This document shows, one piece after another, positions 2,672-59,753 of a DNA stretch of 64,000 bases. A model generated the notes under the pieces. It searched no databases. It saw only the letters and a list, made by a program, of their open reading frames with translations, and had not been told where the DNA came from. The stretch's first letter is position 1; each line of letters starts with the position of its first letter. The DNA is taken from contig JASVEC010000001.1 of the NCBI GenBank assembly GCA_030770535.1, positions 1,550,001 to 1,614,000 on the forward strand, in the 5' to 3' direction. The position numbers and the translations under genes were made by a program. The DNA is from Batkoa obscura (taxonomy: Eukaryota).

Positions 2672-3145
2672 TTAATTTGAAGAGATGGAATTTGATCGTT
2701 TAGATTTTTGGCGTCTATTTTGAAACCAAATCTGGACAGTACGGGGTTTTAACTTAAGAGATTTAGCTAATTTCAGTCTTAAGCTTCGATTAGGGAAAGG
2801 AGTAATCGTATAAGTTCTTTCTAAAGAATCTACTTGATGTAAAGATTTTCTAACTCTCATCCCTGGGAACTCTAGAAACAAATTTTCATTCGAATATACT
2901 GAATTACATGATAATTCATTATATACACTAGATCCGTTACACTTATGATAGGGCATTGGTGAAATATGATTGTTTAAAAGGGACCAGTCTATCAAGTCCG
3001 ACACACTAGGTAATTTTTTGAAAGATTCATCATCGTAGGTTGAATTTTTTAATTCGGGTAATTTGATATCAGAATATAAAGCATTGGGATAATCAAAGTA
3101 GGAATAAATTTTATGGCTTAAAGAGAATTGATCCAAATAGTTCAT
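2672..3145 (-). CDS. Homeodomain transcription factor HD-A (157 aa, intronless)
   Basis: C-terminal homeodomain RVRKSLHQVDSLERTY..FPNRSLRLKLAKSLKLKPRTVQIWFQNRRQK; LPSVSDL motif; TATA-like element about 50 bp upstream. Confidence 0.95.
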   Translation of the reverse strand: MNYLDQFSLSHKIYSYFDYPNALYSDIKLPELKNSTYDDESFKKLPSVSDLIDWSLLNNHISPMPYHKCNGSSVYNELSCNSVYSNENLFLEFPGMRVRKSLHQVDSLERTYTITPFPNRSLRLKLAKSLKLKPRTVQIWFQNRRQKSKRSNSISSN

Positions 3146-3195
3146 TGTTAATTTTTTTACAATACAATTAAAATTTGATATTTGATTATTTACTC

Positions 3196-3209
3196 TCTTA
3201 TATACTTTT
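3196..3209 (-). promoter_or_regulatory. TATA box of HD-A
   Basis: AAAAGTATATAAGA about 50 bp upstream of ATG. Confidence 0.5.
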
Positions 3210-6042
3210 TAGTCGTAACTTTAAACAATTAAAACTAGTAAAATTTTCAAATAAGCTTACAACTTTTTTTAGCTCCTTAACTTAAGCAATTGAGATGAGT
3301 TTTTCCCCTATATGGCTATATCTTCTGAATTTTATTATCCCCTTTTCTATTTGAAATAATTATAATGCAGGTTTAGATTCAGGGTTAATACTTAATTAAA
3401 CCCTATTTTTGTAGAACAAGTAATATATTGTTTATTGGTTTATAAGCTTATTAAAAGCAAATATGTGACTATTTGTTAATTCTCATGGGTGTCAAGTTAG
3501 CTTAGTTTGTAATTTATATTTACGTTTAGTAATTGTAAATAGAGTGTACGCTTAATTATTAAACCATAATAACTTTTCTCCTTAGATTTTTATAAAACAA
3601 TTTTTTTCATTAAATGATCAACTTAATCAAAAGTCAGAAATTAAGGAATTAATCTTTATAATTTATAATATTATCAATTTATAGCAAGAAAATTATTAAA
3701 GTTTCATAGCTAAGAGTGAAAGTAATGATCTAATGAGGAATATGTTAATTGACGGGATTATTTTTATATGGGTTTTATATAATGATATATATAATCGAAA
3801 AAATAAAAGTAAAAGATAAAAGATAAAAGATAAAATTCATTTTATAATAATTCTTTATAGAATCTAGCGATAATATTAAGGTAATGTAAGTTTCTGTAGT
3901 AAATGTATTTATTTAGACTACAATAAATACATTATTCTTCTAGGATATAAATTAATTAACCAAAATTCTTTTCACCCTTGATTCAATACATTATAGTGCT
4001 AGAATTACTTAATAAACATATCTTTTAAAATATATTATATAGGTAAATTTTGTTAACATACCAACATTTATTTACTTTATTTGTACCCCAATTTATGGAA
4101 CAATTCTATGCAGTCAAAATCCTTAAAGTCCAATTTTAATTTGTTTTAACTCCAGATTACTAAGCTTATTTTCATGGAACTATACCAAATTGACTTTTAT
4201 TTGTTTCAATTTATTTAGCTATTTTTATTGGAGCCACCCCATTTCGTAGCATATTAATTGCAATTTATATTTATTTTGACCACTCTAGACTCTTTATTCA
4301 ATATGAAATGATAGTTAAATAGGTCTTTTTTCATTTGGTATAGTTAAATATTATCGCCGTTATATTTGTATAAGACAAACAAAATTATTAAAATTTATGA
4401 AATCATACCCTAAGTTATGGATTTATTAGATTTTAAATCGATCTTATTTTTTTGTTATTAAGTATGATATTACTTTTTAATTGCATGTTTGTGTAAATCC
4501 CATACTATGCTAAGACTATTTCGAAGAGTAGACTTCCTTTTATGCCTTAAGATTTAATATAAGTAAAAAAAATTATTGGCTAATAAAGGGAGAGTTTATT
4601 TTTTTGAGAAATTTTCACAATCTAATTGAATTAAAGAAGCTTGAAATAAATTAAAATAAATTGGGCTAATATTAATTTATTACAAACGTTTAAAAAACGT
4701 TGAGTTTGAATTAAAATGAGAATGATTTAACAATTTTAATAAAAAAAATAGTGTTATCATATATATTTATAAATTTAATAGCTAAAAAATTAATTAAAAT
4801 TTAAAAATGAAACAATTGAATTAAATATGTAGCTTTTATTACAATTATTGTATGGGCAATATTTATTATATTTAATTTATATTCAATACAATAGTGTGGA
4901 TAGGTAGTAAAATTTAATTAACATTCGAGGTTAATTTTAACAATTTTTTTAAAAAGTTGTAATGTTATAGCTCAGTTTATGGTTAACTTTTGCATTCTTA
5001 CTTAAATCACCTGAATTTGCCCCTTAAAATACTAACCTGTTTAAGGATAGTTTTATATTTTTTTCTATTATTTATTTTTAACTTATTTTTAGTTTATTTA
5101 CTTTTATTTATTTTAAGATAATGTTTTATTTTGTTTTAACAATATTAAAATTGTTGATAAAATAATACTAATAATACTAATGCTAGTAATTTAGTTTTAT
5201 AAATTTTTATATTGATCTTTTATTTCATTTTTTATCTTTATTAAAGTTAATTTAAAAAATTTAGAATTAATTAAGTTTAAGCCAATCAATTTTTATTTTT
5301 CTATTATTGCCTTTTTTTTCATATAATTTCTCCAATCTATTTAACTTGTCAATATATTTTAAATATTTCTCCACTTTCTTATTTAATAGTTATAATATAG
5401 CCCATTAATTATAATAAATTACTTACAAATTATTACTATCAATGTTTTATTGTATATTGTTTGAATTTGAAGTAAATAGATTTAAAGATTTCATTATAAT
5501 AAGTTTTGAAATATAGAAAGTACATGTACATTTAGTTAATAAATGTCAATGATATAATAAGATATTTGAAATAAATTACAATGATAACTACCCTGTACGT
5601 TATAAAGGATTAGATAAAAATAAACAAAGTTAATCAAATAATAATGATCTAAAATTTAATTAACCCCGGTTAAAATTTTAAATTTTACAAATGTTGTAAT
5701 CATAACACTGTAACACTTTTTAGAAGTTATACGATAAATGATATTTAAAAAAGTTATAATTTTATATTATTATTAGGCTATTTAAAAAAATAAAGTTATT
5801 AAATAAACAAATTATTAAGATTAAATAATGTTACCATAATAAATGATTAATTAGAATAATTTTTAACAATTTTTAATAATTAAGATTAAGTTCAAACTAC
5901 AAAAATTAACAATAAACATCAAAAGTCCTATAAATTACAGTGATTTAGTATAATTTTTTTAAAAAGTAGAAGAAAAAGTGTAGAATGTTTCTGACTGATG
6001 AAATATCATAAAACAGTTATAAGGATTTTTTAAAGAACTGTA

Positions 6043-6525
6043 TTAGCTTCGTAATTTTTGACGCTTATTTTGAAACCAAATTTGAATGTTTCTTTGGTCA
6101 AGGTTTAATAGGTTAGCTAGACAAACCCTTAGTTTACGATCTGGGAATTGGTTAGCTGAAAATACTTGAGCAAGTACATGGGTTTGATAGTCTGATTTAC
6201 GAAGTCTAGGTTTATACGGTTTTCCTATCTTATTTGCTACTGGGTTACTATAATCGTTATAATATTTCATACTACTATTTTCATTGCTTGGGTAATTACT
6301 TTCAAACTCAGAACTACTTGATTTAAATTTAGTAGGAGTATCAATACAAGACATATCACTTATTGGTTTTAGTTCTGATTCTTTAAATAACTCAGAGATG
6401 CTTGGTAATTTAATAGACCCTTTACAACGACGATTAGAGTTTGAATAGGAATTAATGTATGAAATTTCATTTGCAGAAGAGTGAGAATTATAATGATAAC
6501 AATGTATTCCTTCTGTCATGTTCAT
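6043..6525 (-). CDS. Homeodomain transcription factor HD-B (160 aa, intronless)
   Basis: PRLRKSDYQTHVLAQVF..FPDRKLRVCLANLLNLDQRNIQIWFQNKRQK; LPSISEL motif. Confidence 0.95.
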   Translation of the reverse strand: MNMTEGIHCYHYNSHSSANEISYINSYSNSNRRCKGSIKLPSISELFKESELKPISDMSCIDTPTKFKSSSSEFESNYPSNENSSMKYYNDYSNPVANKIGKPYKPRLRKSDYQTHVLAQVFSANQFPDRKLRVCLANLLNLDQRNIQIWFQNKRQKLRS

Positions 6526-7805
6526 AATATTACCCTCAAGTATTGAATTTTCAATCTTTTAATGTTTAAAAAGTTAGATTTAATATAAGCTAGTGAGTAT
6601 CTTTTTATAGGGTTGCTATATAGAAAATTGTGATTTCTACCTAATGATACTTTACACTATTTATTAGCATTTATATTTACATATTAAGAATAAACAGAAA
6701 ATTTCAAACTCATGGTTCACCCCTTAATCACATATCCTATTGAGTTTCATAAAAGTAAAAGTATTTCAAATTTTGCTACTTGAAATTATATCATTGGGTT
6801 AGATGGGCATAACATCATAAATTTATAATTCATTAAAGTATTATTCCAGTTTGTTTTTGCCCTTAAAAGTTGTAAAAATAAAATATATTTTTACTTAGCT
6901 TTTGTAATATAAACTTGAGGTAGCATTTTTTCACTAAGGGTTATTGACCCGCTCTCAGATCAAACTATTGAACCTATTTTTCATACTCCCTTATTATCTT
7001 TAAAAATAGTAATAGTATAAACTTAAGTAATATAAAACAAGATAAAATTTTTTAATATGAAATCATTTCTAGATTAAATTTGATAAAAAAAAAAGTTTAT
7101 TAATATTTTAAAGTATTGATTTGTTGCTTTATTTTATGTATAATTTTATATTTTATTCACTATTATATCTTTTAACTTTATTATATTTGATTGTTGAACT
7201 CCACTTCCATACATTTGAAATGGATCACTATTATATTTCAATATTATATTATAACAATACATCATTTATTAACTTAATTTAGTAATACTTTAATCCATGA
7301 AATCATGGCTTTATTAAAAAGTAGCTAGATCATTTAATTTAATAATACTATTAATATGTCACTACTTTGTTACTCTTTTTATCACTATAGATAGTATATC
7401 TTAAAATTTATTTAGTACTAATTGAAAATAATTAAAGGATACCTCAATTTGGTTTAAAGCCGATAATCGATTAGTGGTACTTATATTGATTTAGTTGTAA
7501 AGTTATCGATATTAATTTTGATTTTAAAACTAAAAATAATGGAGTTATGATTTTTTACCCTTATATTTATTTTTACAAAAAAAATTCTTGAACAACTACT
7601 CAGACCTGAAAACTCTTTATAGATTGAGTGATATAAGTTATAGTATATCTTTTTGAAAAATGTTTTATCCACCGAGATTGAACATTTGCAAAGCAAAAAT
7701 TCAACAGGATAATCAAATTTGTAGTATTTTGTTAAGTTTTTATTAAGTTTTTTTGCTTGGAATTACCAACCATTGGAGTTCTATATATTTTTTAAAATGG
7801 TATAT

Positions 7806-7904
7806 GGGAATATATTTTTTTGTTTAAGAATTTTACTAACAATCTTTCCACTCAAATAGCGCTTAAAAAATGGAAAAAATAATGAAACCAAAAAAAACAC
7901 CCTC
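7806..7904 (-). mobile_element. ~100-bp MITE
   Basis: Family match, TSD ATAT. Confidence 0.85.
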
Positions 7905-8612
7905 ATATAACATTATATTTTTAAATTTTTGAAGGGGGAATATACTTTAAAGGATGTAGCCGCTAAAAGCCAACACGTAATGTTTTGAAAGCATAAAGGA
8001 GAGAGGCTACTTAATCCCGTTATAAGCCTGGTTTGCTTAAATTAGAAGCTGTAACTGACTTATAATATTTTTTAATTATAAATTTTTAATTATAAATTTT
8101 TAATGTTCTAATGTAAAGTGTTGAAAATAATAACTTTATAAACTACAGTATTTAAGTTTTTTTTATTATATATAAAAGTTTAGTTTCAAATTATAGTTTT
8201 CATAAAAGAAACCTTTATAGATAAAGAAGCTATTTATAAAGGATAATATAATATAGTTTGTAGTTTAATATTAGTATATTTATTTTTAACTAAATTACAA
8301 TTATGCCTTTTTATAATAATGTTAGATTTTATTATTAAGTTCTTGTAAAATTAGCTTAAGTATAAATATAGAAGCGTGTATTTAGTTTGAACCATTGGCA
8401 TTAAAATATACAATGATAATAAATAGTTATTCAATAATTCTAAATGTCGATATTATCAAAAAAATTAATAAACAACAAAAGTATAACTGTACATTTTAGA
8501 CTGTCCCAAAAAAGTGTCCAATTCAAAGCATATTTTAATACAATTTTTATTTTGTTTATTTTTATATTAGCTTAAAATTTAAAAAATTCAATAAAACCTT
8601 AAAAGAGATATT

Positions 8613-8710
8613 GGGGGTGTTTTTTTTAGTTTCGTTGTTTTTCCATTTTTTAAGCGCTATTTGAGCGGAGAAATTGTTAGTAAAATTGTCAAACAAAAAA
8701 ACACATCCCT
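8613..8710 (+). mobile_element. ~100-bp MITE
   Basis: Family match. Confidence 0.85.
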
Positions 8711-8913
8711 AATGTTAATTAAGCTTTAAAGTAGTTTATTATTAAATATTTTTAAGGGTTTTTTTTAGGCAAATTTTAATTATAAAAACTGTAAAATTAA
8801 GACAAAAATTAGTTTTTGATTTAAACTTTAATATTTATAATTAAAACAAATTATAAACAAAAAGACAAATTTAAATTAAATAAAAATTAAAGCACTTTTA
8901 AATTAGTTTATAT

Positions 8914-9012
8914 GGGGCTGTTTTTTTTGGCTTCATTACTTTTTCCATTTTTTAAGCGCTATTTGAGTGGAAAAATTGTTAGTGAAATTCTTAAACACAA
9001 AAATACATCTCC
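8914..9012 (+). mobile_element. ~100-bp MITE
   Basis: Family match, TSD ATAT. Confidence 0.85.
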
Positions 9013-9195
9013 ATATAGGTTAATCGTTTTATATTAAAGATTTTTGTATAATTTTAAAAATTAGTTAAAAGTATAGCTATAATAAATTAGAAAATTTAAC
9101 TAAGTATTATATAATTATCAATTTTATATTAGATTTTATATAATCATTAGTTTTATATTAAAAATTAATTTATCAGTTTTATTTAAAATTATAGT

Positions 9196-9718
9196 TGTGA
9201 AATATTGCTTTATCAGCTCTATAATTGATTATCATGTAATAATCACTTAACTTGTTTACAAAACTAGTTGTAGCCTTGTATTCAATTTGATCGTGATTTA
9301 TGTGATATAGTCAATCCAGAATTCCTACTGCCTAGTCATGAAGGATTTATTGTCTACGTTTTAATGCATATACTTAGTAATTATAATAAGGAATAACTGT
9401 CATCGTGTTTCTTATATATAGTCACCCAGTTGGAGTATAAAACAGATTCCTCAACATGATAACTCGAGGCTTTTTAACTGAATTACTCCCTGATATCATA
9501 TCATTGATAAAGCCACTAAGTCTTTCTGACAACATCTTACGTAGATTTTACACTAGTATTGTCTATTCTATTTGTTTTACATAGTCCGTAGTTTATTACG
9601 TATTATTCTTATTAGTTTAAGTCTATCTTAGTTACATAAACTAAGACCGTTCGACTCAAGGTAAGTTAATTAACCAAGAACTGCTTTTAACTCCAATCAC
9701 TGAGTACCAACTTCCACA
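9196..9718 (-). mobile_element. Solo LTR-like element, copy 3
   Basis: TGT..ACA ends, TSD TAGT/TAAT. Confidence 0.88.
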
Positions 9719-10206
9719 TAATATTGGATATTACAGTTATTTTTATTAAAAGTAGATAATTTATTATAAAACTAAATTTTAAACTTTATTTAAATTTTCA
9801 GCTTTTTATTATAAACTATTTTGTGTTTTTTTTTAGCTGTATTGAATAATATTTTAATATAAATATTTATGTTATTTGTTTATTTATTTATTTATTATTA
9901 TTGTTATCATAATTTTATATTTTACTAAATAAATTTTTTAATATTTTGCATATTTTTTTAATAAGCTATTCCAAACTTTTTTTAAATTCTCAGCTTTTTA
10001 TAACTAATATAAAGCAATTAAGCTTTAAATATTAAATTTTATAACTCCAAATAAAATAAATAAAACTAAATAGATAGATAAACTGAAAGTTAATCTAAAT
10101 TAAAAAGTAAAAAATTATTATATGAAAAAAACAAAATAAAGAATATTAGTTTATATAAAATTTTAACTAATTTTCAGTTAATTGAATTAAATTAATAATT
10201 AGCAAA

Positions 10207-10685
10207 TGTAAAATATCGATTCATTAGCTCTAGGATTGATTATAATATGATAATCAATTCAGTTCCTTATATAGATTTGCTGTGAGAATTTCTACCACCT
10301 AACTATGAAGAACTTATTGTCCACGTTTTAATGTCCATAATTGGCAACTATAATAAGGAATAACTATTATAATATTCCTTATATATAGCCACCCAGTTGG
10401 AGTATAAAAGAGATTCTTCAACATACTAACTTGAGGCTTTTTAATTAAATTACTCCCTGATATCATATTATTAATAAAGCTACTAAATTTTTCTAACAAC
10501 ATCTTACGTAGATTTTACAGTAGTATCTTCTATTATATTTGTTTTACATAATTCGTAGCTTATTACGTATTATTCCTATTAAGTTAAGTCTATCTTAGTC
10601 ACATAAACTAAGACCGTTCGACTCAAGGCAAGTTAATTAAGCAAGGACTGCTTTTGACTCCAACCATTGAGTATCAACCTTCACA
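10207..10685 (-). mobile_element. Solo LTR-like element, copy 4
   Basis: TSD CAAA. Confidence 0.9.
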
Positions 10686-10812
10686 CAAATCAATGATTTG
10701 ATCTAAATAATTGGTTAAAAATGTGATATAAAATTTTAACAAATTTAATTAAATAAAAAACCAAAATATTATTATTTTTTAAATTATACATGCTGGTAAA
10801 TTAAATAATATA

Positions 10813-10885
10813 TAAGGATATATTTTTATGTTTAAGAATTTTACTAACAATCTTTCGCTGAAACAACGCTTAAAAAAACATCCTT
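10813..10885 (-). mobile_element. MITE, internally deleted and degenerate
   Basis: TTTAAGAATTTTACTAACAATCTTTC core. Confidence 0.7.
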
Positions 10886-11088
10886 AAATATAAACATTCT
10901 AAATTAAAAAATATTAATATTTTATAAACTTTATTTTAAATTTAAAGTTTTAAAAATAATAATATTGATTTAAAGATAAAGCTTTTAAAATTTATTAAAG
11001 TTAGAAAATAAAAACAATGAAAATAGCATTATAATTAAAAAAAAGTATTTGGTTTAGTAAATGCTATTAATTAGTTTAAAAAATATCA

Positions 11089-11681
11089 TGTGAAAGTTGA
11101 TACTTAGTGGTCGAAGTTAAAAGCTACTCTTGCTTAATTAACTTGCCTTGAGTCGAACGATCTTAGTTTATGTAACTAAGATAGACTTAACTTAATAAGA
11201 ATAGTATGCAATAGGCTATACGAAAGCCGGTACTCAGTAGTAGAGGTTAAAAGCTACTCTTGCTTAATTAACTTGCCTTGAGTCGAACGGTCTTAGTTTA
11301 TGTAACTAAGATAGACTTAACTTAATAGAAATAGTACGTAATAAGCTACGAATTATGTAAACAAATACAATGGAAGATACTACTATAAAATCTATATCAG
11401 ATGTTGTCAGAAAGACTTAGTGACTTTATTAATGATACGTTATCAGGGAGTAATCCAATTAAAAAGCGTCGAGTTATCATATTGAAGAATCTCTTTTATA
11501 CTCCAACAAGTATGGATATTAAAACGAGAGGATAATATTGTTTGTAATATTAAGTTATAAATTCTCGCAGCAAATCAAAATAAGGGACTCTGACTTGATT
11601 GTGTTTGAACTTGAGAACACAACAACTTAAGTGATTGTTGTGTTATAACCAATTCGAGAGCTAATAAACCAATATTTCACA
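11089..11681 (+). mobile_element. Solo LTR-like element, copy 5, with duplicated first ~130 bp
   Basis: TSD ATCA around the whole unit; head repeated from about 11219. Confidence 0.88.
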
Positions 11682-13180
11682 ATCAATAAAAAAATTATAT
11701 AAAAAATGATAAATTAATATTATAATAAAAAAATTAAGCTATTTAAAGTTTTTATTTAAAAAAACTTATTAAAATGATATTAATATTTACACTAATAATA
11801 GTTATATTTGTATATTTATTGAATATAGTTTTATAGTAATAACACATAAGCTAGTAATTTAAATATAAATAAAATTTATAAAGCTTAATTATAATATATA
11901 ATTTTTAAAATTATTAATATTTTTTTTTGTATTAACAGTTAAAAATAAAATTTTAATTAAAAACTAAGCTAGGTTTAAAAATTAATTACTTGTATAACAA
12001 TATTATAATTAATTTTTAATGCCTGATCTTTATGCAATGGTTTTTGATTATTAATTACTAAAAAATGATTGTTCAAAGTTAATATTTTAATTTTTAAAGC
12101 AATTTTTTAAAATCTTGTATTTTAATTAAATTTAATTGATTTTTTTTAAATAAGCATTTAAAAAAGCTATAAAAAAGCAGCAGCAGCTATAAATAAATTT
12201 ATTTTTATAATAGTATTAAATTAGTTTTTATACAATTTAAAAAAATGAAATAATTTTAGGATTAATATATATATTTTTATATTATAATTTTATAAAAAAA
12301 TGTAATATAAGACTCAAAATTAACAAAAATCGATATAAAATAACCTATATTTTATTATTATCAAGTTTTATATTAATTATATTCTAGAATTATAGTATAT
12401 CAAAAACACATGTACTAATTTTATATTCATGCTATTTTCTTGAACTGTATAAAAACTAATTTGGTGTCTGTATTATAATGAATTTATATAAAAGAATAGA
12501 ATATTTAAAATTTCGATTCAAATGATCAAAAAAGTCAAATTGTTGGTGTTGTGTTATTTTGTCTATAATTTTAAATTATATCAAAGGTATTATTATAATA
12601 AGCAAATATATTAATCTTTATAATGAAATAGGATAAGGACATTGTTATTTCATAAAACAGGTTGTATTATATAATATTAGTATATATATAGTAGTTATTT
12701 AGTATTATAATACTTTTATTACGCTGCTGAGATTAAAATTGATAAAATTTAATTACCCCACCCTTAACTCACATCGATTACAAAGTTAAATCAAACTTGA
12801 CTAATCCTAAAAAAATATTATAAAAAAGCCATCTTTTTTGGACCATATTATAGCCAACTGCTCAAAAACCAGCCAGTTTAAAAAGAAAATTATGCTTTAC
12901 TAAATATATTAAAGCACCCAAAGTAAAAAAATAACTAAAATTTAAAACATATTAATGGGGAAAAAGAAGCAATCAAAAAGATTTCGTTACAAATTTAAAA
13001 TTAGATCGCATTCTTCAAACGATTGAAACTAAGCTTTTGAGATTTGGGGAAACTCACGTGGGGTTTACAAATGGTGTATTATATTAACAGATAGTCGAGT
13101 ATAAATAAAAAAACAAAGATGTATATAAATATACTAAAACTTGATATAAAAATAAAGCTCAATTAATACAATCAAAAGCC

Positions 13181-48671: not shown

Positions 48672-49814
48672 CTAATTTTCACTAATTTAAAATCAAAGCA
48701 TTAAGTTCAATATATCAAACCATATAAAAAAGGAATACTATTTCAATTTTCAATTAATGCAAGGTTTATTCGCTAAAACTGGTTACAAAGTTTTATATAA
48801 AAAATAAAGCAAATTAAACGTTATGAAACTTCGTTTTAATAAAAATTAGCTGAGTCTAAAATAGTTTATGCTTCTGTGACTAATCATTCAATTTTATAGT
48901 TAAAACTATTTTTAATTAAAAGTCCAGAATAAGTTACTACTAACTTATTTTAAACGTGGATTGAGTATTTTTTATATTTTCTGAATTTAACCTCAGGATT
49001 TTCTATTTTTGTATTAGCAAAAGCAAAATAGAAATGCCCAATCTACCTTTAAAGTATCAGAAATATCAATTAAAATATAATTAAGGCAAAAACTACAAAA
49101 AATAATTCCTAGTCCCAGGATTTGATAAAATTAATACCAATATTATATTTGTAATTGCCAAAGATTAGAATATAGAAAAATGTACAAAAATAGTAATCTC
49201 ATAAAAACCATGTGGAGCTTTATTTCAAATAACAAAGTAGAACACAAGGTAGCTGTAATCTTTGCGGTTACCAAATATACATTATTAATATAGCTATTAA
49301 AAATAAACATACATAACAAAACATCTGGTAGACCTGAATATACATTAAGTGTATAGCTTTAAGTAGAATCTTATTATTTAATAAGTATATATTTAACTTA
49401 TTAAAGCTATTGAGTTTTATTTCAGGTAACTTTAAGGGAGATAATTTAATATATTAAATATAAATTGCTAAACTCAATAATAATTCATATTTTATTAAGA
49501 ATAGATTTTATAATTCTTATGGCAATTTGAAATTATTAATTTTCTATATCAAACAAATTTAAAAAATGTCACAGTAGATTTTGTGTAAGGCTACTTCATT
49601 AGTAATAAAGCAAAATTAATATAAACTGTAACTATTGCTATCTTATCGATTCTGTATTAAATATCGTGCATGCTTTTAATAAAAAACTAATTTATAGATG
49701 AGAACAAAACCATCAAGTTTTACTTAATCTTGAATTATCATAAAATAAAATAACTTTAATATTATAATTACATTATTAATATATTACTGAGTTAATAGAT
49801 AGCTGAGTGGGAGG

Positions 49815-50273
49815 TGTGAAGTATTGCTTCATCAGCTCCATAATTGATTATCACATAATAATCACTTAGCTTGTTTACAAAACTAGTTATAGCCTTGTAT
49901 TCAATTTGACCGTGATTCATGTGGTACAATCAACTCAGAGTTCCTTGCTTTGATTTGCTGTGAGAATTTCTAACTTAACATTGCAAAGAATATAAAAGAG
50001 ATTCTTCAACATGATAGCTCGAGGCTTTTTAACTGAATTATTCCCTGATATCGTACTATTAATAAAGCCACTAAGTCTTTCTGACAACGTCTTACGTAGA
50101 TTTTACAGTAGTATTGTCTATTCTATTTGTTTTACATAGTTCGTAACTTATTACGTATTATTCTTATTCATTTAAGTCTATCTTAGTTATATAAACTAAG
50201 ACCGTTCGACTCAAGGCAAGTTAATCAAGCAAGAACTGCTTTTAACTCCTACCACTGATTACCAACTTTCACA
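49815..50273 (-). mobile_element. LTR-like element, copy 9
   Basis: Family match; no TSD; purine-rich tracts abut both ends. Confidence 0.85.
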
Positions 50274-50720
50274 CTTCCACTCTTTAACTTTCTTCCACTT
50301 TAAATACATTAACTTCTATAACTTTTACATAGAACAAAAGCACGAAAGTTAAAGACATTTAGTTGTTTAACAGTGAGGCTATCATATAATTTAAATTTGT
50401 ATTTAACATTTAACATTTAACATTTTGGCTGATATAAGCAAAAAGCTGTATATTAATAGAAAATTTATCTTTTACCTTTAAATAATTTTTTTTTAAAGCT
50501 TTAAAACAAATTAGAATTCAGATATACTATTTTTTAAAGTTTAGTTTAAAAGTCTTACTATTAAAAGCTAACTTTCTACTTGTAGATCGTGGTTTTTTAT
50601 AGAAAACATATAAAGAACACATTAATTAAGTAAAAAATTATAAAATTATTATAAAAAATAAAAATAAATTGCTAGATTAAATCAATTAGAACGTTTTAGT
50701 TTTTTGATGATAAATTAAAT

Positions 50721-50888
50721 TTGAATAGTATAAAAAAATTTATTAGATAATATAATAATTTTAAGCTTTAGGCTATTTATTAATATTTATTTAATATAGC
50801 TAAAGAACAATTTTATAAGTGGCTTGATAAATAGCCTAAAGCCTGGAAATTATTCATTTTTAATAATATCATTTTTGGTACTATTTAG
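50721..50888. repeat. Degenerate inverted repeat with ~70-bp arms
   Basis: GCTTTAGGCTATTTAT / ATAAATAGCCTAAAGC core with extending partial match. Confidence 0.6.
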
Positions 50889-51527
50889 GTTATAAATAAT
50901 AATATAAAATATTTAAAGAATTTTGGCATTACTATGTGAATTCATAAATAGTCAAAAAATAAATAAATGATAATGGCAAGGTTATTGGTTACAACGGTAA
51001 TTTTAATTATTCAGTTTCTTATACAAAATATTTATTGATTAAAATTTATTTTATTTAAGGATGTAGTATTTCTAATAATACTTTTTTTTATTGCGAATAT
51101 ATACTCCTGGCAGTTTTTAAAAAATGTTGCAGCTATTTACAAAGTCCTTAATCCAAATTTTGACCAATAAAAGGTGGATTGATCAAAATATCTTTTATCC
51201 TAAAAAAACAAAAAGTGGAAAAAGCTTATCTCTCATCAACTTTGGCTTCATTGAATTGTTTTACTCTAGCTTTCTTATAATATTTAATTAAATAAAACGC
51301 TACCCTTTTCAGCTAAGGACCAAAGATAATTATAATAAAAAATCGATACCTCAATAAGTTTAACCCGTTGCTTTTTGAAATCAAAACCATTCAAGGGGAA
51401 ATGTAATGAACCATAAATTTGTTAGAGGTTGATATAAAACAATGATTTTTTCTTGAAAGATCTTATTGCATATATAATAACATATATATAAAGATAATCT
51501 GGAAAATTTCAAATAGAAAATTTATAT

Positions 51528-52220
51528 ATGGATTCCACTACTTTAAATAAGGCTTATGATTCATCTAATTACTTTGAAATATATCGCTTAATAGTTGCTT
51601 TTTTATTTATTGTAATTGGATTATTTATCTTGATAATGGTAAGACGAAGAGATATCACAAAATTTATCTATTTCATTAGTACATTTTTATTACTTTATTA
51701 TGCTATAAATCAACTATACTCCATGATAGTATATCTGGCTGATTTTGAGATATCCTCAAGCACTGATAATTATCTTTTGATTCCATTCTCAATTATTCCC
51801 TTACTTTTTGCATTACTTGCACTGCATAAGCAAAGCTTTGGCTATCATTCAACAGCTGGATTAGCTGGATCCTTAATTTGGAGTTTGTTTTCGGTATTTT
51901 TAACAGCAAATGCAAAATACTTCAAATTTATTATAAGCTTTCCATTTATTATCATGGGACTTATTTATTTCACTTACCATAATAGTAAAAGTGTTTTTAA
52001 TATATTAAGTTATTGGATTGGAACTTGTTTGTTAATTCAAGGCATTCAAGATGTTTTACTTATTTCTATTTTCCTAGCTGGTAAATTGGACATTTTAGAT
52101 ATTGTCACTTTGGTATGTCACATTTCAACTATTTTTATAAAAATTAGTCTGTTTGCTTATATTGATATAAAGATAAAGCTAATGGAACTTACAAGTAAAA
52201 ACAATCAGGCCATTAATTAG
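51528..52220 (+). CDS. Multi-pass (about 7 TM) membrane protein, DUF4203/TMEM198-like
   Basis: About seven hydrophobic segments; family-like patterns IVIGLFIL, G..STAGLAGSLI, LSYWIGTCLLIQGIQ (family assignment by eye). Confidence 0.65.
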   Translation: MDSTTLNKAYDSSNYFEIYRLIVAFLFIVIGLFILIMVRRRDITKFIYFISTFLLLYYAINQLYSMIVYLADFEISSSTDNYLLIPFSIIPLLFALLALHKQSFGYHSTAGLAGSLIWSLFSVFLTANAKYFKFIISFPFIIMGLIYFTYHNSKSVFNILSYWIGTCLLIQGIQDVLLISIFLAGKLDILDIVTLVCHISTIFIKISLFAYIDIKIKLMELTSKNNQAIN

Positions 52221-52423
52221 TTCAACATCTTTTTATCCGAACTTATTTGATATTATTAACAAATAGGCTCCCATAAGGCTAAAAGGTTTTATCTCTATCT
52301 CTTTATTTAACTAATTTTTAACTCAAATCATCAATAAATCATTTAGATGTATAAATTTTATTTAGTTTTTACTATTTGGCTGTAAACACATTTAATTATT
52401 GTTTGTTTTCTAATTGAACATAT

Positions 52424-52519
52424 GGGGGTGTTTTTTGGTTTCATTATTTTTTCCATTTTTAAGCGCTATTTAAGTGGAAAAGCTATTAATAAAATTATTA
52501 AACAAAAAAATACATACCC
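52424..52519 (+). mobile_element. ~100-bp MITE
   Basis: Family match, TSD ATAT. Confidence 0.85.
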
Positions 52520-53584
52520 ATATATGACAGTGACTCTGAGTGTTTTATAAAGGATTCTTTAAGTTAACAAAATGGCAGGTATTGGATAAAAAGATGTCTT
52601 TTTAACACTAACAAATGCCACCTTTTGCCCTTAACTAAACTATAATAATAACCATTAGCTTAATATAAACAACGCTAAATATGTACTATTTTAGATTTAA
52701 TACTATCCTTAACATCGAGTTTTCATTTGTTAATAACCGCTACTATAAAGATAATCCGCTTAAGAATGGCCATTAGGATTATTGACATCAATTTACGGGT
52801 CATTATTAGGATAGTAAAAAGCAGATTGGAAATTGCACTTATTAAGTTTTAGAGGCTCTTTATTTCTTAAGCTTTCATAATCTTGTTAAGGTACTCAGCA
52901 TTGTAATATTGGTTTTCAGCATTCAGGTTCTTTTAATTTTCAGTGACCCTTTTACCATTAATTACTCAAGTAGCAATAGAATTTAAAACTCTAATATCTT
53001 AATTTTTATAATGTATAAGCATAATTCCTATTTAAAAAAACATATGACATTTTATGAAACTTTCAACAGAAATAACTTTATAATAAGTTGGAGTTTTAAA
53101 ATTTTTAAGGTTTTTAAAGATATATATATAATAATAAAGCATATGAAAGTTCCTAGCATTTTTAATTTTTGAAAAAAAATAGTTGTAATTAACTTGTTAT
53201 TTCCAAATAATTTAGCAAATTTAAGAACTTTAAACTTGAAATTCTAAACATTTGAAATATTATTTCAAATGCTTTAATAATATTAAATATAAATAAACAA
53301 AATAAAAAATAAAAAATAAAAGTAAAAAAAGGTATAAAAAAGTAAAAATAACATAAAAATAACATAAAAAATTAATTGAATAAATAAAAAAAAGTACTTG
53401 AATTTAAATACTTGCTTTTAAAACTATAACACTTTTTTGTTAAGTTTATTATAGAATTTTAGCTAAAGTAGAAATAAAAGTAAATCTTAACTTATTAAAG
53501 TTAGGTTTAAAGTTAAAAAAGTTAAAGTCAAAGTTAGAAATATTTAAATTAAAGTTAAAAATATCAAAATCAAAGTTATAATTA

Positions 53585-53680
53585 GTGGATGTTTTTTCGG
53601 TTTCATTACTTTTTCCACTTTTTTAAGCGCTATTTAGTGGAAGGATTGTTTAAAATTCTTAAACAAAAAAATACATCCCC
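53585..53680 (+). mobile_element. ~100-bp MITE
   Basis: Family match, TSD ATTA. Confidence 0.85.
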
Positions 53681-54047
53681 ATTATAATAATTAAAATTAG
53701 TTTTATTTTAAAAATGTAATTGAAAATTATTTAATACGTTTATATTTTTAAAGCCTGAAATCTAAATTAAACTTTAAACTTAATTATAAATTTAATAAAA
53801 AGATAGTTTTAATAAATTTTATTTTTAGTTTATATAAAAATTTAAAATATTAAAAAAAGTATATATATAAAAGTAAGAATAAAAATAAAAATAAAGCTTT
53901 AAAAAGTAATGATATAGAATTTAATTAAATTTTATAATTTAGTTATAATTTGGTTATAATTTTAAAAAAAATCAAAATAAATAATTTAATATTAGCTTTT
54001 TTATTATTATTAATATTATTAATATTATTAATTATTATATAAAGGTG

Positions 54048-54507
54048 TGTGAAAGTTAGTAATCAGTCGTTGGAGTCAAAAGCAGTTCTTGCTTGATTAA
54101 CTTGCCTTGAGTTGAACGGTCTTAGTTTATATAACTAAGATAGACTTAAATTAGTAAGAATAGTGCGCAATAAGCTACGAACTATGTGAAACAAATATAA
54201 TAGAAGACATCACTGTAAAATCTACGTAAAATAGTACAAGGCTTAGTGGCTTTATTAATAGTACGATATCAGGGAATAATTCAGTTAAAAAGCCTCGAGC
54301 TATCATGTTGAAGAATCTCTTTTATACTCCAACAAGTATGGATATCAAAACGAGAAGATAATATTGTTTGCAATATGAAGTTATAAATTCTCGCAGCAAA
54401 TCAAAATAAGGGACTCTGACTTGATTGTGTTTGAACTTGAGAACACAGCAACTTAAGTGATTGTTGCGTTATAATCAATCCGAGAGCTGATAAAGCAATA
54501 TTTCACA
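54048..54507 (+). mobile_element. Solo LTR-like element, copy 10, inserted into a MITE terminus
   Basis: TSD GGTG, which is part of the MITE TIR. Confidence 0.9.
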
Positions 54508-54603
54508 GGTGTTTTTTTTGGTTTCATCGTTTTTTCCATCTTTTAAGCGCTATTTGAGTGGAAAATTTGGTAGTAAAATTCTTAAACACAAAAATACCTC
54601 CCC
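54508..54603 (+). mobile_element. MITE body (left tip at 54041-54047, split off by LTR copy 10)
   Basis: Family match. Confidence 0.85.
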
Positions 54604-54654
54604 AGATTGTTATTTGAAAAGAAAAAAATTTATATAGTATTAAAATATAAACAT

Positions 54655-54752
54655 AAATATATATTTTTGTATTTAAGAATCTTACTACCAAATTTTCCAC
54701 TCAAATAGCGTTTAAAAGATAGAAAAAGTGATAAAGCTAAAAGAAACACTTT
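54655..54752 (-). mobile_element. Degenerate MITE, inverted partner of 54508-54603
   Basis: Family core intact, G/C-rich ends eroded to A/T. Confidence 0.75.
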
Positions 54753-55763
54753 TATAAATTATTGTAACTTTTAATTTAATAATTTTTTTTACTTTCTGTT
54801 TTATTTATTTTAATATAAAAAAGCTTAATAATTATTTAACTGGTAAATATACTAGTTTTTTAATCTAGAATTTATTTGATATTTTTTTAATCAAAAAAAT
54901 AAAATATTATATTTTTATTATCAGTATTTTATTTACTATTATTAAGCTGTCTATTATATTAAACATAATTTTAAAAAAACTTCTAACATAATATGCTATT
55001 AAATTACATCAAATTTTATTCGTTAATTTAAAAAGTTTAAAATATTATACTTAGTTTTATTTTATTAACTAGTAAATTTAATACTTATAATATCATCTGG
55101 TTAATATTTAATATTTTGATTGTTTTTATAAAGATTGCTTTATATTAAAAGTCAAAATAATAAGCCAGTCTATAATTTAACTGATTTTTTTTAAATCTGA
55201 ATTTATCTAATAAACATTAATAAAACAATTGATAAAACTTTAATAATTTTTAATATCTTTATTTTTTTTAATAAATTTCAAATTTCTTGCAATTAATAAA
55301 GCATATAAATGTATAAGCTTTTAAGGTTTTTAATTATATATTTATAAACACATTCCACTATCATTCTATTTACTCATTACAAAATAATGATAGTAAAGGT
55401 ATGTGTTTAAAAATAATACTATAAAATAATAATAATAATTAATTATAGATATGATAAAGTATATTGAAAAAAGAGACTATTACTAAAAAACTTTAAAAAT
55501 AGGCTTCATCCAACTTATTTTATTTCATTTCTCTAAAAAAAATTTAATTTATTACCCATAAATTTCACTATGCTGAGATTTTCAAAAAAGGCCTCATTTA
55601 TAAAAGCCCAACATTAATACTAGATAAAAGATAGTAATAATCTATTTTTAATAATAACAAGGAACAATGCTTTCTGTTTAACTAAAATCAAAAAGAATTG
55701 CTAGTTTAATTACAGCTATGATTTTAATATAAATTATTTTACTTATTAGTATACCTTTGAAGT

Positions 55764-56183
55764 TGTGAAAGTTGATACTCAGTGGTCGGAGTTAAAAGCT
55801 ACTCTTGCTTAATTAACTTGCCTTGAGTCGAACGGTCTTAGTTTATATAACTAAGATAGACTTAATACTATAAAATCTATGTAAGATATCGTCAGAAAGA
55901 CTTAGTGACTTTATTAATGATACGTTATCAGGGAGTAATCCAATCAAAAAGCCTCGAGCTAGTATGTTGAAGAATCTCTTTTATACTCCAACTGGGTGGG
56001 TATATATAAGGAACATTATAACAGTTATTCCTTATTATAGTTGGCAAGTATGGACATTAAAACGTGGGCAATAAGTTCTTCGTGATCAGGTGGTAGCAAT
56101 TCTCACAACAAATCTATATAAGGAACTCTGAATTGATTATCATATTATAATCAATCCTAGAGCTAATGAACCGATATTTTACA
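55764..56183 (+). mobile_element. Solo LTR-like element, copy 11
   Basis: TSD AAGT. Confidence 0.9.
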
Positions 56184-56234
56184 AAGTCCATCTTTTAAAA
56201 AAAATCAATAGCTTTTGACGTAAAGATGATTGAC

Positions 56235-56670
56235 TTAAAGTAGGCCACTTAAATAATTAGGTTCAATTTGAGAGTGACTATTGGATAATAAGAAGCTAAA
56301 TTGATTATCACACTTATTAAACTTTGAGAACTCACCATTTTTTCTAGCTTTTACAGTCTTACTGAAATCTGCAACAGCATAACGTTGGCCTTTGGTATTT
56401 GGATTCGTTTGTTTTTCATAGAACCTTTTATTGCTAATCACTCAAGTCCCGATGGCTTTAGTATACTTATAGCTTGAGTTTCCATAATACTCTCTTCTAT
56501 AATTAGCACATAGCTTACCATAAAGGCTTTTAGTGGAATTTGAGGTAATATGTATATTAAGTTTTGTAAATTTTGGCTTAATTTTAGCATCAGTGCTAGA
56601 ATTAGGATAAGGTAAGGTAGAGTTTGCCAAAGCAGTAATTAAAGTAGTGATAGTAAAAGATCTCTATGTT
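56235..56670 (-). pseudogene. Probable pseudogene of a small secreted protein
   Basis: Two same-frame ORFs separated by one TGA; upstream signal-peptide-like RSFTITTLITALANSTL lacks an intact ATG; solo LTR just downstream. Confidence 0.4.
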
Positions 56671-57158
56671 ACTCAAGGGCTTTATTTTTTTACTTTTATA
56701 GTCAGGATGTTCTTCTATTTAATAAATGAAATAATGATTTTAAAATCATTGCTCTATTTAACATTATTCCAGAATTTAGCTAGTTGTCAAACAGATGTAA
56801 CTTTGACATATTAAATAATCTAATAATTTACAGTTTAATAAGATGTTATGATCTATAAGTCATTACTGTATCCAATGTAGATTATGGTGATAATAACCAA
56901 ATAAATTGAACATTACAAAGGTAACTACCAGATTTAAATTAAAAGCTAAAAATAAAACATAATATTAAGTAGTCTAGAAGTACGATAAGTGGTATATCTA
57001 CTACACTTTTAAGACACATTATGGCTAAAAAATAAAAATATAGCTGAAACTTAAAAAGATGAGCCTTAACTTAGTACGTTTAAAAAAAATCTTAGTCCCA
57101 ATAAGGCCAAGTGTGTTTTTATTAAATAAAAAAGTGAATTGGGGGAGTTTTAACAAAT

Positions 57159-57258
57159 GAGGATGTTTTTTTTGGTTCCATCACTTTTTCCATTTTTTTA
57201 AGCGCTATTTGAGCGGAAAGGTTATTAGTAAAATTCTTAAATAAAAAAATACATCCCC
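57159..57258 (+). mobile_element. ~100-bp MITE
   Basis: Family match, TSD AAAT. Confidence 0.85.
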
Positions 57259-59010
57259 AAATCAAGTAAGCATTAATGCCGTGGTTTGACATATTGACGA
57301 GAAATAGACATTTTTAAAAGGGCATTATTAGAGTATCTAATTAGCGAAAGTAGCAATATATTAAATGACATTATATATATCAATAATTTTAAAGAGCAAT
57401 ATCTTAATAATGATAGTAATGAGTTCCAGCTCTTGTTCAAAGATACACTAATTTTATTCTTTTAAAAAACTTAGGTAAGTAATAATTCAACCATTAGTTT
57501 TAGTCGCTATTATTGAAATTATTGAAATGAAATTACGGTCTAATGATATCTTAAATTCCTTGAATAAATGATTATAAAAAAATACATAACTAACAAGATG
57601 CAATTAAATTTTAGCAACACTTAATCCAAATAAGCTAGCATTGTTCCACTGTTTAGGCATACTATTAATTTATTTTAATAAAAAATCAACAAAAGTTCTA
57701 AATTTTTACGATTTCTCCCAGAATAAAATATAAATACAATGCTTGCCAGCAAAGCTTTTTAAGTTGTGTATAAGATTATGTAAATGTTCACTAGATTTTA
57801 ATTCAAGGTAATCTAAACTTAGTGAGATTACATCAAAAGTTTCCTTGTAGTCGTAAAAAAAGATTGATAATTGTTAAACCATTTTTAAGGTAATACGGGT
57901 AGTATATGATTTACTTTGTAAACAAGATTAAGGGTATTTGATACTATAATTTAAAGTTAAAGTTTCACTTTAAAAGTCAAAGAGAGATATACATCAGGTA
58001 CATTATAAAGTATGCCAAATATCTTTCTAGTATTCCGCTTAAAGTGGTGGTTACTTAAAAAAAGGTGAATTTTTTTTAATTAAACCTTAGTTTTAAATGG
58101 ACTTTTATTGAGGGTTTGTTAATTCAAACATTGTACTTTTTATAAAATATAAAATATAAAACATCAAAATTAGTATTAATTTTTAAAAATATATAAAGTG
58201 ATTACATAGTTTGATAAAAATCGGCTGTTTTTTGTTTACAGCAATATACTCATTGTATAATAGGTCAAAAGCAGTGATAAAGTGATGATTGTTGACAAAA
58301 TTATTGATGTATTGATTATAAAGTCTAGATTTATGATTATGTAATTAAAAATATCCTCAAAATTCAAAATTAATTACAAAAATTAATATAGAACCAACAT
58401 AAAAATCTAGATTTTAATATTACAATACTTTTTAATGATAAACTCTTCCACTTCTTAACGATTAAATAGAGTAGTATTTGAATTTTCATAGATGAGATCA
58501 TATTAAAAAACAAGCAGATGCGTTTAGTTTAACATGACTTAACTAAGTAATTTTATACTTTATTTAACTAAATCTTTTTCAAAAAAAATTATATCATCTT
58601 GCATATTTTAATATTCCAAATATTTTACAATCTTTTGCTTTAATATTAAATAAAATTGATGAAATAATAATATCATTGCAACGTGATTTTAACTAACAAA
58701 GGTCAAATGGAATTTGTGAAAAAATATATAAATCTACTTGTTTGCTACCCTCAACGATTTAGGGTAATGAAACCAAGCATTATAGAAATTTATTAAAAAT
58801 TTTGGAACTTAAAAAAAGACGGCTAAAAAGGATATTATAATACTAACTAACAAATTCATTCATTTAGCTAAATAAAAATAGAACATTTATTTGAAATTCA
58901 ATTTATAATTTATTCAATACTACCTTTTTTTTTCTCCACTTTTAAATAAACTCAATCTAGACTCTCCCTTTTCTAAAATCAACATTGAGATTTATAACCG
59001 ATCCGAGTAT

Positions 59011-59024
59011 AAAAGTATATAAGA
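59011..59024 (+). promoter_or_regulatory. TATA box of HD-G
   Basis: AAAAGTATATAAGA, identical to the HD-A element, about 145 bp upstream of ATG. Confidence 0.45.
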
Positions 59025-59168
59025 ACAATTTAAGTAAATAAAAAAAGTTATTGAATATTATTTTATATTGAAAATTTAATTTTTGTTTCTTTATTTATTT
59101 ACATAATTAATTTAACTAATAATATCCCATTTAACAAAGCTGGTATTTGTATATTATACAATTTAAAT

Positions 59169-59753
59169 ATGGAATCACAATACAGTTTTATACCCGTCAA
59201 TAATACATTCAATAATACTACCATTACCCCTAATAGTAGTGTAACGAATACTACTGATGTAAGTGAGTATAGATTTATAGATGAAAACAATATGAATCGA
59301 TTTCCAAAATATAGTTATTCCGTACCCAATGTGAATGTCAAATTAGAAGTACCAATTCGAAGGAAACAAATTAATATACGTTTACCTTCTTTAAAAGATT
59401 TAAATTTAATACCTATTGCATATAAAGAAGTCGAAGTAAGTGCGAATGATCATTTGACTAGTCCAATACAAACTCAAAGTGAACCTAACTTACATGAATC
59501 AAATCCAAAATTTATAATTATTCATGAAAATCAACATGATAGTCCACTACCTAATCAAAGATGGAAAGTTACTAAAGAACAGGCTAAATTATTAAATTCA
59601 ATATTAAAAAGAAATTATTATCCTAATACACAATTAAGAAATAAATTAGCTAAAGAATTAGCTTTGTCTCCAAGGACAATTCAAATTTGGTTTCAAAATA
59701 AACGACAAGCTTATAAGTATAAGTTTGGTACTAATCCTCCACATTCCAATTAA
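59169..59753 (+). CDS. Homeodomain transcription factor HD-G (194 aa, intronless)
   Basis: QRWKVTKEQAKLLNSIL..YPNTQLRNKLAKELALSPRTIQIWFQNKRQA; LPSLKDL motif. Confidence 0.95.
   Translation: MESQYSFIPVNNTFNNTTITPNSSVTNTTDVSEYRFIDENNMNRFPKYSYSVPNVNVKLEVPIRRKQINIRLPSLKDLNLIPIAYKEVEVSANDHLTSPIQTQSEPNLHESNPKFIIIHENQHDSPLPNQRWKVTKEQAKLLNSILKRNYYPNTQLRNKLAKELALSPRTIQIWFQNKRQAYKYKFGTNPPHSN

What the first reader, a model, noticed from the sequence alone, without database searches (positions are those of the whole stretch)
2672..59753. Cluster of seven homeobox genes in a fungal genome
Seen: seven intact, intronless 147-231 aa ORFs (2672, 6043, 13966, 22125, 39356, 47903, 59169), each with a typical non-TALE homeodomain. 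They are 7 of the 13 intact genes in this 57-kb span, and outside the homeodomain they are nearly unalignable, so the duplications look old and retained. Known: physically linked homeobox arrays are characteristic of animals (Hox, ParaHox, NK); model fungi have few, scattered homeobox genes apart from HD1/HD2 mating-type pairs. Inference: an independently evolved fungal homeobox cluster that may control developmental or host-stage switches. It may extend left of the window.
Basis: partly seen in the sequence, partly recalled or inferred. Interest (0 to 1): 0.92.

Follow-up and report, generated by a model that had tools for sequence, protein, structure and literature searches.

The report
Seven linked homeobox genes, insect fungus
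Seven intact homeobox (DNA-binding regulator) genes lie within 57 kb in an insect-infecting fungus, far denser than chance; they are likely old local copies of a common fungal repressor family, and whether the grouping is conserved or co-regulated like animal Hox clusters is untested.

Summary
Confirmed: seven intronless ORFs each carry a typical homeodomain with intact DNA-reading residues, among 13-15 genes. The host is Neoconidiobolus thromboides or a very close relative. Strain FSU 785 has counterparts of H1, H2, H4 and the GH16 gene on what appears to be one contig. H1-H4 are likely transcribed; H5-H7 are untested. Random placement is excluded.

Seven of ten zygomycetes have 27-51 homeobox genes (Conidiobolus coronatus 27). 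Six genes fall in the widespread Yox1/Yhp1-like group. All seven carry an upstream hydrophobic motif also found in 60 of 84 homologues. They never form one clade, but the test is marginal (p-AU 0.04 and 0.12).

Best reading: an old, lineage-restricted array of likely repressors, built by local duplication, closer to Rhox/Obox than to Hox. Linkage beyond the species and ordered expression could not be tested. I found no paper on a fungal homeobox array, and the scan has no look-alike.

The parts
2672..3145 (-). H1, 157-aa homeodomain protein (domain about 2696-2857; upstream motif LPSVSDL); fast-evolving subgroup
   Evidence: PF00046 E 1.7e-16; 86% identical to FSU 785 KAI9296339.1; covered by a contig of run X2
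6043..6525 (-). H2, 160-aa homeodomain protein (domain about 6049-6213; motif LPSISEL); fast-evolving subgroup
   Evidence: PF00046 E 6.4e-16; 92% identical to KAI9296338.1, with 1 of 58 differences in the domain against 12 of 100 outside; covered in X2 and X7
13181..13906 (+). Intervening GH16 (Crh-type) cell-wall glycosidase gene; anchor for taxon and linkage
   Evidence: PF00722 E 2e-41; 193 of 194 aa identical to KAI9296337.1
13966..14409 (-). H3, 147-aa homeodomain protein (domain about 13981-14142; motif LPSITEL); tail to tail with GH16
   Evidence: PF00046 E 1.2e-15; covered in X2 and X7
16857..18871 (+). Intervening cyclin-box ORF with an upstream low-complexity ORF, possibly one spliced gene (junction not resolved)
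   Evidence: Cyclin_N and Cyclin_C; X7 contigs run on unlike at 17972 and 18141
22125..22568 (-). H4, 147-aa Yox1/Yhp1-like homeodomain protein (domain about 22194-22352; N-terminal motif FSLNFILN)
   Evidence: PF00046 E 8e-16; 58-aa domain identical to P0170, on a contig of the same length as the H1, H2 and GH16 records; covered in X2 and X7
24767..25639 (-). One or two intervening ORFs of unknown family
   Evidence: no Pfam family at its cut-off
26432..28537 (-). Intervening Zn2Cys6 transcription factor gene, 701 aa
   Evidence: PF00172 E 6e-5, above cut-off
29668..31002 (+).
   Evidence: PF07534 E 6e-14
39356..39856 (+). H5, 166-aa Yox1/Yhp1-like homeodomain protein (domain about 39554-39709; motif SINFMLN; K54)
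   Evidence: PF00046 E 2.3e-13; 57% identical to H4 in the domain; groups with H4 and E. muscae P0230 at 87/89 in one tree
47903..48598 (-). H6, 231-aa homeodomain protein (domain about 48092-48256; motif LPSIGEL; S54); falls outside the Yox1-like group in both trees
   Evidence: PF00046 E 1e-15; branches 95/93* and 96/94* separate it; mean 49% identity to both groups
51528..52220 (+). Intervening 230-aa hydrophobic, probably multi-pass membrane protein of unknown family
   Evidence: no Pfam family at cut-off; hydrophobic segments
59169..59753 (+). H7, 194-aa homeodomain protein (domain about 59556-59717; motif LPSLKDL); fast-evolving subgroup
   Evidence: PF00046 E 4.4e-14; joins H1-H3 at 98/81* and 83/83
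4..57276 (.). Dispersed short repeats in the spacers, several with inverted ends (MITE-like); about 20% of the window
   Evidence: depth of thousands in DNA runs shows high genome-wide copy number

Best explanation
This is an array of seven intact, short homeodomain genes that likely arose by repeated local duplication of Yox1/Yhp1-like genes in the entomophthoralean lineage, and whose products are predicted to act as separate DNA-binding repressors rather than as one co-ordinated Hox-like unit. Shown: ORFs, domains, recognition residues, motif, non-random density, and the linkage of four genes in a second strain (by proxy). Inferred: each protein binds TAAT-core sites through I47/Q50/N51 (established homeodomain code, recalled) and recruits a Tup1-type co-repressor through the upstream amphipathic motif. 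Copies were then shuffled by inversions and insertions in a repeat-rich region (five on -, two on +, 2.9-16.8 kb apart, other genes between). H1, H2, H3 and H7 form a fast-evolving offshoot, H4 and H5 are a conservative pair with an Entomophthora relative, and H6 is either a divergent copy or a gene of a second class. The linkage is probably mostly a legacy of duplication.
For: Family: 95 of the 120 listed hits carry a single homeodomain, and nearly all named ones are fungal, including one named YOX1/YHP1; the other 25 carry two, named double-homeobox where named. H4 and H5 average 58% identity to that group. Motif: LP[SP][IVL]xx[LI] in 5 of 7 and S[IL]NF[IM]LN in the other 2, each with shuffle probability about 0.005 or less; a looser form occurs in 60 of 84 homologues against 0.5 expected. 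Tup1 binds an IxIxxLL motif of MATalpha2 (PMC4943189 section 6; PMC4901127), and yeast Yox1 is a repressor that binds Sin3, Cyc8 and Tup1 (PMC10163088). Turnover background: 27-51 homeobox genes in 7 of 10 zygomycetes, PF00046 depleted in core orthogroups, homeobox among species-unique families of C. obscurus. Rapid change: long branches for H1, H2, H3 and H7; H1 differs from the other strain at 8 of 60 domain residues. A conservative Yox1-like paralogue lies on another contig (P0152). Constraint: H2 1 of 58 against 12 of 100 (P=0.03); H4 0 of 58; no gaps in 6 of 7 listed X2/X7 contig pieces over H1-H4, while intergenic DNA pieces carry 4-54 gaps.
Against: The seven are not one clade in either tree (0% of 200 bootstrap trees; p-AU 0.042 and 0.116), so a single-founder tandem history is doubtful, and co-location of different lineages is what an older or selected cluster would give. 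Copies saturated at synonymous sites have stayed linked, which neutral decay might not allow. Only H3 fits the strict fungal Tup motif [VI]xx[IL][LM] (read off the sequences), and the mapped repression domain of yeast Yox1 lies after its homeodomain (aa 220-280), not before. My motif patterns were drawn up after seeing the sequences. No yeast Yox1 sequence was compared directly. Trees rest on 57 columns, long branches meet, and only two other entomophthoralean homeodomains were available.
Confidence: 0.58

Rival explanations
1. An old homeobox cluster held together by selection (shared enhancers or chromatin domain), made of at least two homeodomain lineages and switching life-cycle stages in sequence: a fungal analogue of Hox/NK clusters.
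For: Old divergence with retained linkage. Mixed lineages in one region. E. muscae has a likely counterpart of H4/H5 with the same N-terminal motif type. Homeobox genes are up-regulated at conidiation in C. obscurus.
Against: Mixed orientation, six or more unrelated genes and about 20% repeats inside the span. Fast evolution of four members. The E. muscae H4/H5 relative and GH16 orthologue lie on contigs of different length (833,177 and 882,727), which is weak evidence given a 1.03-Gb genome with N50 330 kb. No ordered-expression data.
Confidence: 0.15
2. One of several such patches: the species has a very large homeobox family, and repeat-rich, gene-poor regions collect lineage-specific regulators (homeobox, Zn2Cys6) from different places, so the region is a sink rather than a duplication array.
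For: Non-monophyly. A Zn2Cys6 gene lies in the span, and both PF00046 and PF00172 are depleted in core orthogroups. The broad HTH/homeodomain-like class counts 85, 112 and 250 in C. coronatus, Z. radicans and E. maimaiga. An Atlas cluster of 61 short homeodomain proteins, mostly Zoopagomycota where the phylum is known (7 members), is a near hit at 0.85-0.86, a lead only.
Against: Random placement fails even at 400 genes. H1, H2, H3 and H7, and separately H4 and H5, group together in the larger tree, which fits local duplication. No repeat family brackets the genes tightly.
Confidence: 0.2
3. A mating-type or self-recognition locus with divergent homeodomain alleles.
For: H1 and H2 differ by 14% and 8% from FSU 785 while GH16 differs by 0.5%. 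Homeodomain genes determine mating type in other fungi (recalled).
Against: No TALE (HD1) partner and no head-to-head HD1/HD2 pair. The H2 and H4 domains are nearly invariant between strains. Neighbouring non-homeobox DNA also differs by several percent between runs.
Confidence: 0.04
4. Decaying copies or an assembly artefact.
For: H1 shows no excess constraint in its domain between strains (8 of 60 against 14 of 97). H5-H7 expression is unknown.
Against: All frames and core residues are intact, copies are only 33-57% alike, a second assembly has counterparts, and two DNA runs cover all 30 bins of 2620-22600.
Confidence: 0.03

Closest known systems
Fungal Yox1/Yhp1-like homeodomain repressors (zygomycete members such as Apophysomyces KAF7730135.1, N. 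thromboides KAI9296632.1, E. muscae KAJ9055443.1)
   Same: Single typical homeodomain with I47/Q50/N51 and mostly Q54, the same upstream LP[SP]I- or SIxxLLN-type motif, short low-complexity proteins.
   Different: Seven copies within 57 kb. Four have domains only 42-46% identical to the group, and H6 falls outside it. Each of 80 metagenome loci fetched held one homeobox, but most are short.
Young, fast-evolving animal homeobox arrays (mouse Rhox and Obox, Dux; extra Hox-derived genes of moths)
   Same: Lineage-specific expansion by duplication with rapid divergence, clustered in the case of Rhox (PMC4901127 section 21).
   Different: Unrelated homeodomain class, fungal host, interleaved with other genes, synonymous sites saturated.
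Hox, ParaHox and NK clusters of animals
   Same: Several diverged, linked homeobox genes with a shared recognition helix; NK-like genes also carry an N-terminal EH1 co-repressor motif.
   Different: Not ANTP class, no hexapeptide, mixed strands, intervening genes; deep conservation and colinear expression not shown.
Basidiomycete HD1/HD2 mating-type loci (recalled)
   Same: Linked homeobox genes in a fungus.
   Different: No TALE partner and no divergently transcribed HD1/HD2 pair.

Membership tests
Typical (non-TALE) homeodomain, PF00046 | Pfam score above the gathering cut-off; W48, F49, N51, R53; no three-residue loop extension | tested here: met
   7 of 7
Yox1/Yhp1-like fungal homeodomain proteins | Homeodomain groups with fungal Yox1/Yhp1-type sequences | tested here: inconclusive
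   H1-H5 and H7 lie inside the starred group containing the JGI-named YOX1/YHP1 protein, H6 outside; 57 columns, long branches, yeast Yox1 itself not in the tree
Yox1/Yhp1-like fungal homeodomain proteins | Upstream hydrophobic motif shared by zygomycete members | tested here: met
   7 of 7 here; 60 of 84 homologues against 0.5 expected; pattern defined after inspection
Yox1/Yhp1-like fungal homeodomain proteins | Repression through Tup1/Cyc8/Sin3 and partnership with Mcm1 | not testable with these tools
   Known for yeast Yox1; no assay here
Hox/ParaHox/NK clusters | ANTP-class homeodomains, hexapeptide in Hox genes | tested here: not met
   Closest single-domain hits are fungal; no YPWM-type motif in the sequences
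Hox-like functional cluster (analogy) | Linkage conserved across distant species | tested here: inconclusive
   Seen only in a second strain, through contig length and consecutive accessions; E. muscae relatives on different contigs of a fragmented genome
Hox-like functional cluster (analogy) | Colinear or co-ordinated expression | not testable with these tools
   Only assembled contigs were available; they cannot rank genes
Single-founder tandem array | Members form one clade | tested here: inconclusive
   Not a clade in either tree; p-AU 0.042 (44 rows, mixture model) and 0.116 (24 rows, LG+G4); six without H6 p-AU 0.184
HD1/HD2 mating-type locus | A TALE HD1 gene paired head to head with an HD2 gene | tested here: not met
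   No TALE gene in the window; Homeobox_KN below cut-off in all seven

The most novel reading that the evidence does not exclude
The first developmental homeobox cluster outside animals: an old array of at least two homeodomain lineages, each gene with an EH1-like Tup1-recruiting motif as in NK genes, kept linked across Entomophthorales and expressed in order through spore, host-invasion and sporulation stages.
Probability: 0.12. Interest if true: 0.88.

Novelty: new variant of a known kind. Interest (0 to 1): 0.52.

Why it matters
Homeobox clusters are described from animals, and my searches found no description of one in a fungus. Even as a duplication array, this shows that early-diverging fungi build Rhox-like batteries of diverged homeodomain regulators. 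Gene models miss this easily: the H4 record is a 58-residue fragment. It gives a natural test of why homeobox genes stay clustered, by selection or by inertia, in a lineage with no body axis. It also names candidate regulators for stage switches in insect-killing fungi, for which few regulators are known (my assessment).

Tried and rejected
No whole genome is held, so the genome-wide count and map were not possible. A single-protein search with H6 gave 3 hits among 188 candidates. None of 10 window proteins is in the collection exactly. The profile search of representatives was swamped by multi-homeodomain proteins; I looked up 9 of the best 150. The last protein search listed 120 of 2,061 hits, with only three entomophthoralean rows (P0170, P0028, P0230), so it cannot count paralogues. 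The metagenome scan gave 80 loci, each with one homeobox; 5 of 80 are under 35% GC, and I did not assign them to a taxon. No RNA holder is listed on record; X2 and X7 are guessed RNA. Reads on H5-H7 were not obtained. dN/dS between paralogues is meaningless at saturation. No Rfam or tRNA hits. PDB hits are generic animal homeodomains. Atlas hits are all under 0.9. Supplements of PMC11105155 and PMC5954228 had no homeobox rows, that of PMC10079182 only uninformative ones, and the text of PMC8778642 had none. No structure or complex was predicted: the fold is routine and no Tup1 sequence was at hand. Transposon-borne movement was considered, but no repeat pair brackets a gene closely. Retroposition was considered, but other genes here are also intronless and retrocopies would scatter (inference). 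Earlier notes of the scan: none for this genome, none by sequence.


Full report
Observation. The window is 18-29% GC and holds seven single-exon ORFs with a WFQNxR helix at the coordinates given; H5 and H7 are on +, the others on -. All seven, of 19 ORFs scanned, pass Pfam's cut-off for PF00046, and none passes the TALE model. Core and DNA-contacting residues are intact. Position 54 is Q in five, K in H5 and S in H6. No further or decayed homeobox was found in the window. The domains are 33-57% identical and synonymous sites are near saturation, so these are old copies and not a collapsed repeat. Between them lie GH16, cyclin, Zn2Cys6, TLDc, a membrane protein and one or two unknown ORFs, giving 13-15 genes in the span. 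About 20% of the window is dispersed repeat, several with inverted ends.

Host and linkage. The GH16 protein differs at 1 of 194 residues from a record of Neoconidiobolus thromboides FSU 785, a generalist entomophthoralean with 8,867 predicted genes (PMC11105155, passages). FSU 785 records KAI9296337.1 (GH16), KAI9296338.1 (H2 counterpart, 92%) and KAI9296339.1 (H1 counterpart, 86%) are consecutive and share contig length 128,731. This is a proxy for linkage; I did not see the contig. The window is therefore another strain, haplotype or very close species. Counterparts of H3, H5, H6 and H7 were not among the listed hits. Another N. thromboides homeobox gene lies on a different contig (KAI9296632.1).

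More than chance. With 27, 51, 100, 200 or 400 homeobox genes among 8,867, the genome-wide chance of at least 7 in 13 neighbours is 1.6e-11, 2e-9, 2.7e-7, 3.6e-5 or 4e-3. That excludes random placement, but not ordinary local duplication, which is the proper null. The genome's own count could not be obtained.

Background. A review states that fungi usually have fewer than a dozen homeobox genes (PMC4901127, passages). A supplementary table of PMC5415576 gives IPR001356 counts of 29, 51, 31, 40, 27, 11, 27, 10, 38 and 28 for its ten zygomycete columns, with C. coronatus at 27, against 1-18 in ascomycetes. The broader HTH/homeodomain-like class counts 85, 250 and 112 in C. coronatus, E. maimaiga and Z. 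radicans (PMC12638772, supplement row). PF00046 is under-represented in core orthogroups of four entomophthoraleans. In C. obscurus, homeobox domains are enriched among unique families, and two genes labelled 'Homeobox phx1' rise at conidiation (PMC9026835, passages and supplement rows). Homeobox is also listed among the most dynamic transcription-factor families in early fungi (PMC10406608, passages). The family is large and turns over fast in this lineage.

Family. A profile of the seven domains returned 2,061 proteins, of which 120 were listed. Twenty-five have two domains, named double-homeobox where named, and score by repetition. The rest are single-domain proteins; the named ones are from Mucoromycota, Kickxellales, Dimargaris, Basidiobolus, Rhizophagus, basidiomycetes, Geotrichum and Entomophthorales, and one is named YOX1/YHP1. 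H4 and H5 average 58% identity to this group, H1, H2, H3 and H7 42-46%, and H6 49%. Five window proteins carry LP[SP][IVL]xx[LI] before the domain and H4 and H5 carry S[IL]NF[IM]LN. A looser pattern occurs in 60 of 84 full-length single-domain homologues, against 0.5 expected after shuffling (13 short or partial and 25 multi-domain rows of 122 were dropped). The patterns were written after seeing the sequences.

Trees. Two trees on 57 columns used hand-picked rows: 37 stored proteins and 17. Both split the seven into three places. H1, H2, H3 and H7 group together (98/81*, 83/83), on long branches that the program flags. H4 and H5 join E. muscae KAJ9055443.1 and one mucoralean row (87/89) in the larger tree and are unresolved in the smaller. 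H6 falls outside the Yox1-like group (95/93*, 96/94*), beside three unnamed proteins that I labelled Phx1-like from recall. No bootstrap tree of 200 had the seven together, yet the AU test gave 0.042 and 0.116. Single origin is doubtful, not rejected.

Expression and constraint. I laid 4 of 12 listed runs on 2620-22600, covering four of the seven genes. X2 and X7, from two studies, are guessed to be RNA. They drop to depth 0-1.3 over 19295-21295, where the DNA runs X5 and X6 hold 38-72, and their listed pieces fall almost all on genes. X2 has pieces on H1-H4. X7 has pieces on H2-H4 and depth in the H1 bin. H1-H4 are therefore likely transcribed, although contigs cannot give level or timing. 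Six of those seven pieces have no gap, whereas intergenic DNA pieces have 4-54. Against FSU 785, H2 differs at 1 of 58 domain residues and 12 of 100 others (P=0.03), H4 at 0 of 58, but H1 at 8 of 60 and 14 of 97, with no excess constraint. H5-H7 remain untested.

Mechanism. I infer seven separate TAAT-core-binding regulators (recognition code recalled), most likely repressors. MATalpha2 binds Tup1 through an IxIxxLL motif, and [VI]xx[IL][LM] is weakly enriched in Tup-interacting factors of fission yeast (PMC4943189, passages and section 6). Yeast Yox1 represses through Sin3, Cyc8 and Tup1 (PMC10163088, passages). Against this, only H3 fits that strict motif, and Yox1's mapped repression domain follows its homeodomain. 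The array likely grew by local duplication from one or two Yox1-like founders and was then reshuffled. Mixed strands, intervening genes and repeats argue against tight shared control but do not exclude it. The E. muscae H4/H5 relative and GH16 orthologue are on contigs of different length, which says little in a 1.03-Gb assembly with N50 330 kb.

Comparison and novelty. The section on genomic clusters in PMC4901127 (read whole) lists only animal clusters, including young, fast-evolving ones (Rhox, Obox, Dux) that this array resembles more than Hox. Searches showed no paper, by title or abstract start, on a fungal homeobox array; one search returned none. The library lacks most subscription journals. 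The scan's notes hold nothing similar by place or sequence. Verdict: a real and apparently undescribed arrangement of a known, expanded gene family; new variant of a known kind; interest 0.52. The Hox-like reading stays open at about 0.12.

Noticed in passing
window 1086-1227, 7783-7930, 15605-15740, 16215-16350, 23370-23992, 57149-57276 and others: A repeat of about 130 bp with short, imperfect inverted ends (MITE-like), about 20 self-matches in the window and very high depth in DNA runs.
   Followed up: partly
window 33210-34663 and 25855-26367: Long inverted pairs: arms of 510 nt at 96% and 139 nt at 98%; probably non-autonomous DNA transposons or two copies in opposite orientation.
   Followed up: no
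window 51528-52220 (+): Intronless 230-aa hydrophobic protein with no Pfam family; possibly a lineage-specific receptor-like membrane protein.
   Followed up: partly
window 16857-18871 (+): A cyclin-box ORF with an upstream low-complexity ORF inside the array. RNA-like contigs suggest splicing, but the plain GT-AG join I read does not keep the frame, so a small exon may be missing. A cyclin beside Yox1-like genes may be coincidence.
   Followed up: partly
window 3245-7844, runs X5 and X6: Both DNA runs give two distinct contig versions of the same intergenic stretches, each about 3-11% from the window; this suggests strong heterozygosity or mixed strains in a group usually thought haploid.
   Followed up: no
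window 2672-3145 (H1): H1 differs from its FSU 785 counterpart at 8 of 60 homeodomain residues, while H2 and H4 differ at 1 and 0 and GH16 at 1 of 194: relaxed or positive selection on H1 is possible.
   Followed up: partly
   Followed up: no
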